Of a stretch of DNA of 13,670 nt, positions 2,290 through 12,944 are shown one piece after another; the stretch's first letter is position 1; every line of letters begins with the position of its first letter. The position numbers and the translations under genes are program-made. This DNA is from Octopus sinensis (lineage: Eukaryota), in the NCBI RefSeq assembly GCF_006345805.1, contig NW_021826053.1, positions 1 to 13,670 of the forward strand, given 5' to 3'. A model generated the notes under the pieces. That model did no database searches, had not been told where the DNA came from, and saw only the letters and a program-made list of their open reading frames with translations.

Positions 2290-2743
2290 GATGTTTTATT
2301 AACCATAAAGGTCTTACATAGAGGGGACACTACAACACTTTGGGGACACAAAACATCAAAAAAAATTATTGTACGATAAAATGAGAGAAAGGGTGAAAAT
2401 GAGAGATAAAGGTGATGTTAACTGCCCCATCAGTCAACATCACTTACTTGTCCTTTTTTTCCTAATTTTCTGCGAAAACCACAAAGTCCCCAAATTTAAC
2501 CTCGTATATTTCTTCTAGTTCATCCTTATTTTCCGGTGCCAATGTTCCTTTTATAAATACATATTCATCCTCAAGTTCCTCTTCAAGTTCTTTCCCCCGA
2601 CTTTTTGACGTTACCAATTCTATTTTCTGATGCCACCCATCTGGGATTTCTATCTTTCCCCATATTTTCAATCTTTCATATAAATGTTTGCTGTCAATAA
2701 TACCCATACAATGTTCTTCAGAGTAGGGGTTTTGTGTTATCGT
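2290..2743 (-). mobile_element. 5'-truncated non-LTR retrotransposon of unidentified clade (ORF C-terminus + 3' UTR), copy 1, with 14-bp TSD
   Basis: Flanked by exact direct repeat TCGTCGAATACTGT (2276-2289 and 2744-2757). Minus-strand ORF ends ...LYERLKIWGKIEIPDGW...LEEIYEVKFGDFVVFAEN* (stop at 2462), followed by a 3' UTR ending AATAAAACATC. Homologous to 9378-9758. Confidence 0.8.
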
Positions 2744-2892
2744 TCGTCGAATACTGTTCCAAAGTTGGATCTTGGTGGTTTTGCCTATTTTGTTAGAGTA
2801 TCACGTAGCGTACATTCTCAAGAATACGGCAGCGACTTTGCCAATTCCTTGGTAGATATCGACCACAATGTCGCCATTGTTACTGGTGTTGC
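2744..2892 (-). pseudogene. RTE-clade LINE reverse transcriptase fragment (C-terminal RT/thumb region)
   Basis: One minus frame reads SNNGDIVVDIYQGIGKVAAVFLRMYAT*YSNKIGKTTKIQLWNSI. This matches the RTE pattern S.DG....DI..RIGKA...F..L..IW....I...TKI.LY.S, with TGA at the expected Trp. Confidence 0.75.
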
Positions 2893-6175: not shown

Positions 6176-6267
6176 ATTTTTTTTCTAGTTTCAGTTTCAG
6201 TTCAGAGCTGTCGGCCATGCTATATATATATATATATATCTATATATAGATATATATATATATATAT

Positions 6268-6916
6268 ATAACACTAGGGACTAAAGCCATCTGAATATGG
6301 CTAGGGACAGTGCAGGGTGGTGTTACTGTTGCATTTAGCCCCAGGCGAACATCGACGTCGCCAGATAGGCTTGACACCATCACGTGTCCTTTAACCTGCA
6401 AAGGGAGATAATTCCCCGATGAAGCGAAACCACACACGGACCATGTTTCAAGGTGTATTGCCTATCGTCAACGTGTGGTAGGCCTCCGCTTCCTCGACGA
6501 AATCTCACTCTGCAGGATATTCATAATAATTTTTTTCAAGCAAAATCCATTTGCTGATTTCGAAAATCTGTTCGACAGCAATAATAATTCTCTAAAAGAG
6601 ATATAGACAGTAACTGCTCGATAACATAAGGACTAAAGCCATCTGAATATGGCTAGGGACAGGGAAGGGTGGTGGGGGTTTTACTGTTGCATTTAGCCCC
6701 AGGCGAACATCGACGTCGCCAGATAGGTTGACACCATCACGGTGTCCTTTAACCTGCAAAGGGAGATAATTCCCCGATGAAGCGGAAACCACACACGACC
6801 ATGGTTTCAAGGTGTATTGCCTATCGTCAACGTGTGGTAGGCCTCCGCTTCCTCGACGAAATCTCACTCTGCAGGATATTCATATATAGATTTTCAAGCA
6901 AAATACATTTGCTGAT
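6268..6916 (-). repeat. ~1.85 tandem copies of a ~353-bp structured unit (copies A and B)
   Basis: ATAACA..GGACTAAAGCCATCTGAATATGGCTAGGGACAG starts at 6268 and again at 6621; the copies differ mostly by small indels. Strand is inferred from G-U-compatible folding. Confidence 0.95.
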
Positions 6917-7299
6917 CTCTTTTAGAGAATTATTATTGCTGTCGAACAGATTTTCGAAATCAGCAAATGTATTTTGCTTGAAAATCTATATATGATATCC
7001 TGCAGAGTGAGATTTCGTCGAGGAACGGAGGCCTACCGCACGTTGACGATAGGCAATACACCTTGAAACCATGGTCCGTGTGTGGTTTCCGCTTCATCGG
7101 GGAATTATCTCCCTTTGCAGGTTAAAGGACACCGTGATGGTGTCAAGCCTATCTGGCGACGTCGATGTTCGCCTGGGGCTAAATGCAACAGTAACACCCC
7201 CACCACCCTGCTCTGTCCCTAGCCATATTCAGATGGCTTTAGTCCCTTATGTTATCGAGCAGTTACTGTCTATATCTCTTTTAGAGAATTATTATTGCT
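6915..7299 (+). repeat. Inverted copy C of the ~353-bp unit (~1.1 units)
   Basis: 6959-7299 is the reverse complement of 6577-6916 apart from small differences. The spacer 6917-6958 is itself inverted unit sequence (reverse complement of ~6559-6600). Confidence 0.95.
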
Positions 7300-7352
7300 A
7301 TATATATATATATATATACATACATATATATATGTGTGTGAGTGTGTGTATA

Positions 7353-7412
7353 TAACGGGAAGCTTTATGAAAATAGACAAAAGACGAAGGCAGGTGGAAT
7401 ACAAACAAACAA
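7353..7412 (-). mobile_element. Short terminal fragment of the Penelope-like element also seen at 12739-12944
   Basis: TAACGGGAAGCTTTATGAAAATAGACAAAAGACGAAGGCAGGTGGAATACAAACAAACAA closely matches 12739-12798 and has the same boundary next to TA repeats. Confidence 0.65.
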
Positions 7413-7443
7413 TTATATGTACACACACACATAAATATATGTA

Positions 7444-7474
7444 TTGGGTCATCCCATAAATAAAGCGGTTTTTT
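7444..7474 (+). mobile_element. Mariner 5' terminal inverted repeat (after TA target dinucleotide)
   Basis: TA|TTGGGTCATCCCATAAATAAAGCGGTTTTTT resembles mariner ITRs (TTAGGTTGG...TGCGGTTTTT type) and lies ~180 bp upstream of a transposase. No 3' ITR is seen. Confidence 0.7.
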
Positions 7475-7626
7475 AAAGTGCATGAACTAAAATTTGAAGG
7501 GGGATGGAATAAACTACCTGCATCAACTTGCTTTAAAAACAGGTAGTAATTTTACCTTCTGCTTATTCTTAGTGCTAGTTTTGAAGAGTGCAGTTCGATT
7601 TTAGCAGTTATTTTTTCAAAGCTATA

Positions 7627-8094
7627 ATAGAAGTGACAAAGGAGCATATTTGGCATATTTTGCTTTATGAGTTCAATAAAGGCAACAATGCAACGGAACG
7701 TGCGAGGAATATTAATGCAGTATATGTGGATCGGACATTAAGCGTAAGCCAGTTTCAGTGGTGGTTTCAGAAATTCTGAGCCGGAAAATACAGCCTAGAA
7801 GACAAGTCTCATCCTGGAAGATCTGTAGAGCTAGACGAGGACGTCCTGCAAACCCTGGTGGCACAAAACTCCATCGTAATTGTTGAGGAACTAGCAGAGA
7901 AGCTTAGATTTGGTCATTTAACCATTCATCGACACCTGTGTGCCATCGGAAAAGTCAGCAAATTGGGTCAATGGGTTCCTCACAAACTTTCTGAGTCTAA
8001 TCGCGTGCAGAGAGTGAATGTGTGCTCTTCTTTGCTGTCACGTCTCACGAATGAACATTTTTGGGAACGAATGATGACTGGTAATGAGAATTGA
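7627..8094 (+). pseudogene. Mariner (Tc1/mariner, Mos1/Hsmar1-like) transposase pseudogene, N-terminal half
   Basis: One frame reads EVTKEHIWHILLYEFNKGNNATERARNINAVY...WWFQKF*AGKYSLEDKSHPGRSVELDED...EELAEKL...TIHRHLCAIGKVSKLGQWVPHKL...MMTGNEN*. It has two HTH regions, a WVPHEL-like motif and a degenerate TGDEKW. It also has an internal stop at 7777-7779, a likely ATG>ATA start loss, and ends at the first catalytic motif. Confidence 0.93.
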
Positions 8095-8095
8095 G

Positions 8096-8190
8096 TAAAG
8101 GGAAGAATGTTACTGCTATTTAGCCCCAGGAATCACCGTTTCCAGTCGGCCATGTGACACAAGCGTACTGTGTCCTTATGTTTTCAAAGT
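8096..8190 (-). mobile_element. Short insertion with a two-hairpin motif ending CCTGGGGCTAAATAGCAGTAAC (probable retroelement 3' end)
   Basis: Shares motif sequence and structure with 7125-7195, and begins immediately where the mariner frame ends. Confidence 0.55.
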
Positions 8191-8265
8191 TGACAACAAA
8201 CCATCACTTTACCGTGCTGCTACTGTATAAATCTCTCTGAGAGATTTAGAAATGTAATATTTATA

Positions 8266-12738: not shown

Positions 12739-12741
<3 letters not shown>

Positions 12742-12944
12742 CGGGAAGGTTTACGAAAATAAACAAAAGGCGAAGGCAGGTGAAGTACAAACAAACAACT
12801 GTATTAGTATAGCGCTCAGGAATAGAAATAGAAAAAGTGGTTTACGTTTCGAGCCTACGCTCTTCGACAGAAGATACACAGAAAAAAAAACGAGAAGAAG
12901 AAACAAGGAGAGAAAAGAATGCGTATAGGAGTAACGATCTATCA
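12739..12944 (-). mobile_element. Penelope-like element terminal (pLTR-like) fragment between TA repeats
   Basis: Contains a minimal hammerhead-type motif typical of Penelope-like elements, has a second partial copy at 7353-7412, and is flanked by (TA)n. Confidence 0.6.
12841..12872 (-). ncRNA. Minimal type-I hammerhead ribozyme-like motif (variant core CUGUCGA)
   Basis: Minus strand UU-CUGUCGA-A-GAGC-GUAG-GCUC-GAAACGUA-AA gives a core, a 4-bp stem II, GAAA, a palindromic ACGU stem III and a GUA cleavage triplet. A6 is U and stem I is only 2 bp. Confidence 0.6.

What the first reader, a model, noticed from the sequence alone, without database searches (positions are those of the whole stretch)
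6268..7299. Non-coding ~1 kb element made of a ~350-nt structured unit in tandem plus head-to-head inverted copies, inserted in (TA)n: candidate retrozyme-like or Penelope-mobilised RNA element
Seen: a ~353-bp unit occurs ~1.85 times in tandem (6268-6916). It then switches strand at a 2-nt AT microhomology (6915-6916) and runs ~1.1 unit inverted (to 7299). This gives ~340-bp arms (6577-6916 / 6959-7299) around a 42-nt spacer. Each arm is longer than one unit and the two start and end at different points of the unit (circularly permuted). Both outer ends run into (TA)n, and no ORF is shared by all copies. Known: tandem and inverted pLTR arrangements typify Penelope-like elements, and metazoan non-LTR retrozymes are tandem repeats of a few hundred nt that yield circular RNAs. 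Inference: longer-than-unit permuted arms fit reverse transcription round a circular or multimeric RNA, primed from both sides of a TA break.
Basis: partly seen in the sequence, partly recalled or inferred. Interest (0 to 1): 0.72.

Follow-up and report, generated by a model that had tools for sequence, protein, structure and literature searches.

The report
Two-armed retrozyme with altered hammerhead core
This 1-kb repeat is one of many scattered copies of a protein-free 361-base element that carries a hammerhead (predicted self-cutting RNA) motif with an unusual core letter, and its two mirror-image arms start at two different fixed points, which likely means a Penelope-type jumping-gene enzyme copied its RNA, probably a small circle, from both strands of one DNA cut.

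Summary
The tandem-plus-inverted layout is real and typical of a whole family. The unit is 361 nt; the window holds a 1.84-unit left arm and a 1.07-unit right arm joined at a 2-nt overlap. So this is an animal non-LTR retrozyme. Of 50 two-armed loci, 46 have one outer end at site A and the other at site B, 44 nt apart; none has A+A or B+B. Six loci outside pure (TA)n show 12-14-bp target duplications. This fits Penelope-type priming from both target strands. Arms run through the predicted cut site without stopping, which fits a circle or an uncut multimer. Unusual: this lineage has a U3/G8 core in about 210 matches, a derived C3-C4 core in 27, and the canonical core once. Cleavage, circles and the partner enzyme are not shown; no independent read spans this locus. 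This scan reported the same two-site anatomy earlier for other retrozyme families of this genome.

The parts
6221..6270 (.). (TA)n target, left side; a target duplication cannot be read inside pure TA
   Evidence: (L001 row)
6268..6916 (-). Left arm, 1.84 units, outer end at site B (unit position 45, no tail). The predicted RNA sense is the - strand; it holds two hammerheads in tandem
6426..6483 (-). Hammerhead copy 1 (core UUGACGA; one base missing in stem III/loop 3, probably an assembly error); predicted cut near 6439/6438
   Evidence: the model was built from this family, so the match is by construction; table 4
6577..6620 (-). Internal copy of the 44-nt tail segment (unit 1-44), read through inside the left arm
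   Evidence: query 310-353
6785..6842 (-). Hammerhead copy 2 (core UUGACGA; one base missing at the cut site, probably an assembly error); about one unit from copy 1
6915..6916 (.). 2-nt AT overlap where the two arms are joined
   Evidence: family overlaps are 0-5 nt in 39 of 50 two-armed loci
6915..7299 (+). Right arm, 1.07 units, outer end at site A (unit position 1, with tail). The predicted RNA sense is the + strand
7031..7089 (+). Hammerhead copy 3, intact type I fold: stem I, core UUGACGA (7043-7049), stem II, GAAA, 2-bp stem III with palindromic loop, predicted cut 7076/7077
7256..7299 (+). 44-nt tail between reverse-transcription start sites B and A (inferred), with a small hairpin
7299..7333 (.). 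(TA)n target, right side

Best explanation
This is a genomic copy of a protein-free, 361-nt, hammerhead-bearing repeat (a non-LTR retrozyme) that was likely pasted into a (TA)n tract by a Penelope-like reverse transcriptase/endonuclease copying its RNA, probably a circle, from both strands of one staggered cut. Steps. (1) Shown: each unit carries a type I hammerhead fold on one strand, and that strand is the better-folding one. (2) Inferred: a locus with two hammerheads in one arm, as here, is transcribed; the ribozymes cut, probably as a dimer, and the monomer is ligated into a circle. (3) Shown: insertions lie in AT-rich or (TA)n DNA, with 12-14-bp duplications where these can be read; inferred: a staggered cut leaving two 3' ends. 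(4) Shown: one arm starts at site A and the other at site B, 44 nt apart; inferred: the two 3' ends prime cDNA at two fixed RNA sites, one each, perhaps through the two halves of an enzyme dimer on one RNA. (5) Shown: arms cross the unit junction and the predicted cut site and end at scattered points; inferred: synthesis runs round a circle or along an uncut multimer. (6) Shown: the arms meet at 0-5-nt overlaps in most loci; inferred: host end-joining closes the gap, giving the inverted layout. Circle versus uncut multimer: about 65:25.
For: Hammerhead: found by comparison with two related families at about 61-62% identity. On 16 hand-picked distinct motifs, 94.6% of cells pair and 5 of 15 pairs change on both sides; slid controls give 20-59% and at most 2 pairs. 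The shape matches the usual metazoan type I form: 6-bp helix I, 4-bp helix II, short helix III with palindromic loop (PMC4209133, passages). The minus strand folds as a circle at z = -5.5 against -2.4 for the plus strand (60 shuffles). Two fixed ends: 46 of 50 two-armed loci are A+B, 0 are A+A or B+B, 4 have one end elsewhere (67 distinct loci from 90 fetched); the related 352-nt family gives 11 of 13. Target duplications of 12-14 bp at L002, L020, L026, L041, L052, L053 (45 loci examined). PLE signatures in print: partial tandems, inverted 5'-truncated copy, 30-40-bp tail at one end, (TA)n bias (PMC8557442, passages). Two adjacent internal start sites that bound the tail, cleavage and extension of both strands, and a predicted dimer (PMC11167929, main text). 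Intact RT+GIY-YIG frames of 775 and 781 aa exist in this genome, and the 775-aa family also has two 3' ends about 30 nt apart in (TA)n. Template longer than a unit: 66 of 120 arms exceed one unit; 1 of 120 inner ends lies within 3 nt of the predicted cut, 2.3 expected if uniform. Passes within a locus differ by 0.7-2.1%, between loci by 2.6-5.3%. Shared variants are in all passes at 105 of 112 multiply covered sites; L151 has about 20 and L154 has 7 variants fixed in all passes and seen in no other sampled locus. A 390-nt contig in a run guessed to be RNA spans one 360-nt unit plus 30 nt (X15), the shape of a closed path if the word size is 31 (recalled).
Against: The core is not canonical: U3 opposite G8 in this copy. 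Natural covariation reported there is U3-A8 (PMC3088659, section read; PMC4209133), and I could not read the paper on tolerance of this pair. Rfam finds no ribozyme. In the predicted monomer circle stems II and III are not formed, and forcing the fold costs 6-9 kcal/mol. The structure was drawn by me from these related sequences, so leans towards it. No autonomous element with a homologous end was found among 72 PLE loci; the apparent link at L097 is an unrelated neighbouring insertion. The longest arm (L147, 5 units) shows variants shared by neighbouring passes, which points to later local expansion; L011 and L014 share flanks but hold 2.35 and 1.35 units. Long arms are over-represented because the queries rank them first. 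Five two-armed loci gave only a 2-8-nt duplication match (L005, L007, L021, L032, L046). RNA status of the runs is a guess, and depth on the repeat-rich flanks is as high as on the element, so expression is not shown. The F2 locus L113 has two A ends.
Confidence: 0.83

Rival explanations
1. Same element and same Penelope-type insertion, but the template is an uncut linear multimer transcribed from tandem source loci. The altered core leaves the ribozyme slow or dead, and no circle is involved.
For: Non-canonical core in nearly all copies. HHR mutants did not impair PLE insertion in vitro and unprocessed RNA was the main substrate (PMC11167929). Arrays can grow locally (L147; L011/L014). A 390-nt closed contig also arises from a uniform tandem.
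Against: No array longer than about 5 units among 40 scored candidates of the 2.35-unit query. Each successive subfamily has its new variants in all passes of multi-unit arms, which needs a single-unit bottleneck. The rest of the hammerhead is kept, with compensatory changes.
Confidence: 0.25
2. The units are only the terminal repeat (pLTR) of an autonomous Penelope-like element, and these loci are its 5'-truncated insertions.
For: Tail, inversion, hammerhead and (TA)n bias are all PLE features. Xenopus retrozymes match pLTRs (bioRxiv 10.64898/2026.07.22.740005).
Against: In the 67 loci mapped, arms continue into another unit or stop; none was seen to continue into an ORF. No PLE locus examined has a homologous end in the expected orientation. 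An ancestral origin from a pLTR is not excluded.
Confidence: 0.07
3. The inversion arose by L1-style twin priming or by later DNA rearrangement (fold-back, MITE-like terminal repeats), without Penelope machinery.
For: Short junction overlaps and 12-14-bp duplications also occur with LINE insertion (recalled).
Against: Both arms begin at fixed sites and overlap in sequence, whereas L1 twin priming gives non-overlapping pieces with a variable internal primer (recalled). The two ends are different sequences, not terminal inverted repeats; no poly(A) tail; single-armed copies exist (15 of 67).
Confidence: 0.04
4. The structure at this locus is a fold-back or chimeric assembly artefact.
For: The window is a whole 13.7-kb contig with many indel errors; no independent contig spans it.
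Against: A fold-back read would mirror the flank and have symmetric ends. Here the flanks differ, the ends are A and B as in the family, and the same layout occurs on chromosome-scale contigs.
Confidence: 0.03

Closest known systems
Metazoan non-LTR retrozymes (Cervera and de la Pena 2020, PMC7229834; Li, Clavereau and Pollet 2026, bioRxiv 10.64898/2026.07.22.740005)
   Same: Non-coding tandem unit of similar size (mussel 350-390, axolotl 330-350 nt), GC under 50% (0.46), type I hammerhead in each unit, 2-bp helix III with tetraloop and a U-U at the base of helix II as in axolotl HHR_Amex2, well-folded predicted circle, duplications longer than 4 bp, PLEs in the same genome.
   Different: Dispersed one- or two-armed insertions of 0.1-5 units, not long arrays; inverted arms with two fixed starts, which the main texts I read do not describe; core U3/G8 or C3-C4 instead of the canonical core; cleavage and circles untested here.
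EN+ Penelope-like elements (Craig et al. 2021, PMC8557442; PAc, Frangieh et al. 2024, PMC11167929)
   Same: Partial tandems, inverted truncated copy, tail at one end only, AT/(TA)n targets, two adjacent start sites, hammerhead upstream of the start sites.
   Different: No ORF; tail 44 nt against 30-40; cut site about 180-220 nt upstream of the start sites; no homology to the ends of the PLE families examined here.
Non-autonomous Chlamys elements such as MRC1 (PMC8557442, passage)
   Same: ORF-less PLE passengers with head-to-tail multicopy insertions.
   Different: Those generally resemble autonomous partners at the 3' end and mostly lack hammerheads; here no partner match was found and a hammerhead is present.
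Natural hammerhead core variants (Perreault et al. 2011, PMC3088659; PMC7151607)
   Same: U at position 3 and C at position 4 occur in natural ribozymes; U4C is reported to keep enough activity in vivo in a viroid.
   Different: Reported U3 cases come with A8 or with a two-base insertion in saltern sequences; here U3 faces G8 without either, through several successive subfamilies of a mobile element.

Membership tests
Metazoan non-LTR retrozyme | Short (about 150-450 bp) head-to-tail repeat unit without ORF, LTR, PBS or PPT | tested here: met
   361-nt unit; no frame shared by the copies; arms of units only. PBS and PPT were not searched for specifically.
Metazoan non-LTR retrozyme | Type I hammerhead fold in each unit | tested here: met
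   three helices, GAAA, A15.1-U16.1, C17; compensatory changes in helices I and II.
Metazoan non-LTR retrozyme | Canonical catalytic core (C3 U4 G5 A6 N7 G8 A9) | tested here: not met
   Exact-pattern counts: canonical 0, UU core 113, CC core 26; in the shorter-loop subfamily 98 UU, 1 canonical, 1 CC of 100 listed out of 113. The related 352-nt family is canonical. This is why I call it a variant.
Metazoan non-LTR retrozyme | At least two consecutive hammerhead-bearing units (Li et al. criterion for an active copy) | tested here: met
   The window's left arm spans two motifs (each has a one-base gap, probably an error); 21 of 67 loci have such an arm.
Metazoan non-LTR retrozyme | Self-cleavage of the transcript | not testable with these tools
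   Needs in vitro transcription.
Metazoan non-LTR retrozyme | Expressed as a monomeric circular RNA | tested here: inconclusive
   Unit+30-nt contig in X15 and a deep 285-nt contig in X17; contigs only, RNA status guessed, strand unknown.
Penelope-type insertion | Tail present at one end only (two start sites) | tested here: met
   46 of 50 two-armed loci are A+B.
Penelope-type insertion | Partial tandem and inverted 5'-truncated copies in AT-rich or microsatellite targets | tested here: met
Autonomous Penelope-like element | ORF with RT and GIY-YIG domains | tested here: not met
   No ORF in the element or continuing from it in the loci mapped.
Non-autonomous derivative of a named PLE family | End sequence shared with an autonomous partner | tested here: inconclusive
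   BLAST and nhmmer on 42 and 72 PLE loci found only independent neighbouring insertions; few PLE families were sampled and most loci had 1.5-kb flanks.

The most novel reading that the evidence does not exclude
A retrozyme lineage that has spread for several subfamily generations with a weakened hammerhead core (U3/G8, later swapped for C3-C4 but never for the canonical core), so that its RNA cuts only as a dimer and its circle stays closed; and whose insertions record an asymmetric Penelope dimer priming both target strands at sites A and B on one circular RNA and running round it with strand displacement.
Probability: 0.3. Interest if true: 0.75.

Novelty: new variant of a known kind. Interest (0 to 1): 0.52.

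Why it matters
Retrozymes are proposed to move through Penelope enzymes and RNA circles, but the evidence in the papers read is co-occurrence and sequence kinship. This family leaves the insertion footprint itself: two fixed starts, one per target strand, a 12-14-bp stagger, and arms longer than a unit. Craig et al. name the formation of tandem/inverted structures as an open mechanistic question, and the existing in vitro PLE system could test it with a 361-nt RNA. The persistent non-canonical core bears on a puzzle raised in PMC7229834: how animal retrozyme circles avoid cutting themselves. It also shows that searches with canonical descriptors and Rfam miss whole retrozyme families.

Tried and rejected
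Rfam on the window, the element and a clean 2.35-unit copy: no ribozyme. A first motif scan that required C at position 3 missed the hammerhead and flagged a plus-strand CCGATGA...GAAA; rejected because helix I cannot form. Twister- and HDV-like readings were considered by eye and dropped for lack of stems. Helitron/MITE readings rejected: different ends, target duplications, single-armed copies. L097 looked like an autonomous partner but is a separate insertion of a related retrozyme beside a PLE. Partner search by GIY-YIG family, by protein and by profile: none found. Sequencing runs: no RNA holder listed; all eight runs laid were contigs, and none covers the window's junctions. Search for a second assembly copy or empty site of this locus: the left flank is single-copy. 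Pile-up of arm ends at the ribozyme cut, expected for a linear cut monomer: not seen. Pfam on three window ORFs: no family. Literature: searches for retrozyme+octopus, hammerhead+octopus(+Penelope), retrozyme+twin priming, C3U, C3-G8/U3-G8 and the core words found no report of these families or of a U3/G8 retrozyme core; the library lacks most subscription papers. The supplement of PMC7229834 could not be read, bioRxiv supplements are closed, and one supplement file of PMC4209133 was not searched; these may list cephalopod repeats.

Full report
Observation. The window is a whole 13.7-kb contig of a 2.72-Gb animal genome. From its repeat landscape I take it to be an octopus; that label is recalled, and the scan's earlier notes also say cephalopod. 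Self-BLAST confirms the tandem and inverted matches at the stated coordinates. On the 361-nt family unit the left arm runs from position 45 through 1.84 units and the right arm from position 1 through 1.07 units; they meet at a 2-nt overlap. The many one-base differences between copies are mostly errors of this contig: independent DNA contigs differ from its unique left flank by 5 gaps in about 380 bases. No independent record spans the locus.

The family. Three DNA searches fetched 90 loci. After removing duplicates and loci cut by the fetch edge, 67 remained; two of them are the same site. Fifty have two arms pointing inward, 15 have one arm and 2 are more complex. In 46 of the 50, one outer end is at unit position 1-5 (site A) and the other at 45-50 (site B). 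None is A+A or B+B; four have one end elsewhere. Inner ends are scattered round the unit, and junction overlaps are 0-5 nt in 39 of 50. Most targets are (TA)n. Among 45 loci examined, six two-armed loci in readable targets have 12-14-bp duplications, five give only 2-8-nt matches, and seven single-armed loci give 3-4 nt. For single-armed L011, contigs of the host repeat join its two flanks directly. A related 352-nt family (62% identity) has the same anatomy in 11 of 13 two-armed loci, with one three-piece exception that has two A ends. An older third family also exists. Exact motif counts put this lineage at roughly 250 intact ribozyme copies or more; the first-look candidate numbers include relatives and are not copy numbers.

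The ribozyme. Rfam and my first motif scan found nothing. Comparing the three families exposed a conserved block that reads as a type I hammerhead on the minus strand of the unit. That is the strand that must be the RNA if both arms are cDNA grown inward from the target. It is also the better-folding strand (z -5.5 against -2.4). On 16 distinct motifs that I picked, 94.6% of cells pair and 5 of 15 pairs change on both sides, well above slid controls; the rows are related and I drew the structure from them, so this is support, not proof. Helix III has two pairs and a palindromic loop, the form said to need a dimer (PMC4209133, passages; PMC7229834, results and discussion). The window has three copies.

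The core. The related 352-nt family has the canonical core. This lineage does not: canonical 0, UU 113, CC 26 with one loop length, and 98 UU, 1 canonical, 1 CC of 100 listed with the other. A tree of 46 units, with the 352-nt family as the outgroup, shows a ladder of UU subfamilies with the CC group as one derived clade (support 100/98; many other forks are weak). Contigs from four of the five runs guessed to be RNA carry CC (X15, X17, X18, X19; not X22). C3-G8 is a pair in the active fold (PMC3884650, passages). Natural covariation is to U3-A8, and U4C is tolerated in a viroid (PMC3088659, passages and one section); a U3 core with a two-base insertion is known from salterns (PMC7151607, passages). 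Whether U3/G8 cuts is untested. In predicted circles of this lineage helices II and III are unformed, and the ribozyme fold costs 6-9 kcal/mol, against 3.6 in the canonical family.

Mechanism. PLE insertions show partial tandems, an inverted truncated copy, a 30-40-bp tail at one end and (TA)n bias (PMC8557442, passages and supplement rows). A purified PLE protein cuts and extends both strands at AT-rich sites and starts at two adjacent internal RNA sites that bound the tail (PMC11167929, main text). The A/B ends, duplications and junction overlaps here fit one staggered cut with both 3' ends primed, one at each site. The strict pairing suggests one asymmetric complex rather than two independent events; that step is inference. 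Intact RT+GIY-YIG frames are present, and one family has two ends about 30 nt apart in (TA)n, but no PLE end homologous to the unit was found among 72 loci.

Circle or multimer. A cut linear monomer is unlikely: 66 of 120 arms exceed one unit, and only 1 of 120 ends near the cut; long arms are enriched by the queries. For a circle: passes within a locus are about three times closer than between loci, both arms share haplotypes, and some loci have many variants fixed in all passes. One contig has the length of a unit plus 30. Against: the 5-unit arm of L147 shows later local expansion, L011/L014 differ by one unit at one site, 71 of 74 locus-private variants are not in all passes (expected from later mutation under either model), and a weak ribozyme would leave multimers uncut. 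Expression is not established.

Standing. It works like, and on tested features is, an animal non-LTR retrozyme (PMC7229834; bioRxiv 10.64898/2026.07.22.740005, abstract through discussion), differing in its core and in a two-armed footprint that those main texts do not describe. My searches found no cephalopod retrozyme in print, but unread supplements may hold one. This scan has noted the two-site anatomy in other families of this genome; I had reached my reading before that look-up, no note matched this sequence and none held the core-variant words. Verdict: new variant of a known kind, interest 0.52.

Noticed in passing
window 8101-8250: A small, older two-armed relic related to the same retrozyme group (profile positions 89-173 on +, 7-69 on -; nhmmer E 2e-7 and 8e-9).
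   Followed up: partly
window 7340-8095: Very high-copy repeat (depth) with a 104-aa frame at 7780-8094 that looks like a mariner transposase remnant (recalled; Pfam gave no hit).
   Followed up: partly
window 7345-7412 and 12740-12782: Two short similar fragments next to (TA)n, probably the end of another Penelope-type family.
   Followed up: no
window 2462-2800 (-): 112-aa open frame in non-repetitive-looking sequence, no Pfam match; could be an exon or a transposon remnant.
   Followed up: partly
L092-L096 (e.g. L092:1174-4874): PLE family with an intact 781-aa RT+GIY-YIG frame preceded by an overlapping 479-aa frame of no clear family; L092 repeats with a period of about 5.9 kb.
   Followed up: partly
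L097, L184-L213: Second PLE family with near-identical intact 775-aa frames and two alternative 3' ends about 30 nt apart in (TA)n; no sense-strand hammerhead found by my pattern.
   Followed up: partly
L104-L133, L164-L183, L035:196-253: Related retrozyme families: a young 352-nt one with canonical core, an older one, and a further canonical motif in the flank of L035.
   Followed up: partly
L011 and L014: Same flanks but 2.35 against 1.35 units: an allelic or assembly difference of exactly one unit.
   Followed up: no
L050; L113: Three-piece insertions (A, B, B ends in L050; two A ends plus a B fragment in L113) that do not fit the simple two-arm rule.
   Followed up: no
fetched loci, motif list: Two hits of a different hammerhead-like motif that also has U at position 3, so the variant may recur in another family.
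   Followed up: no
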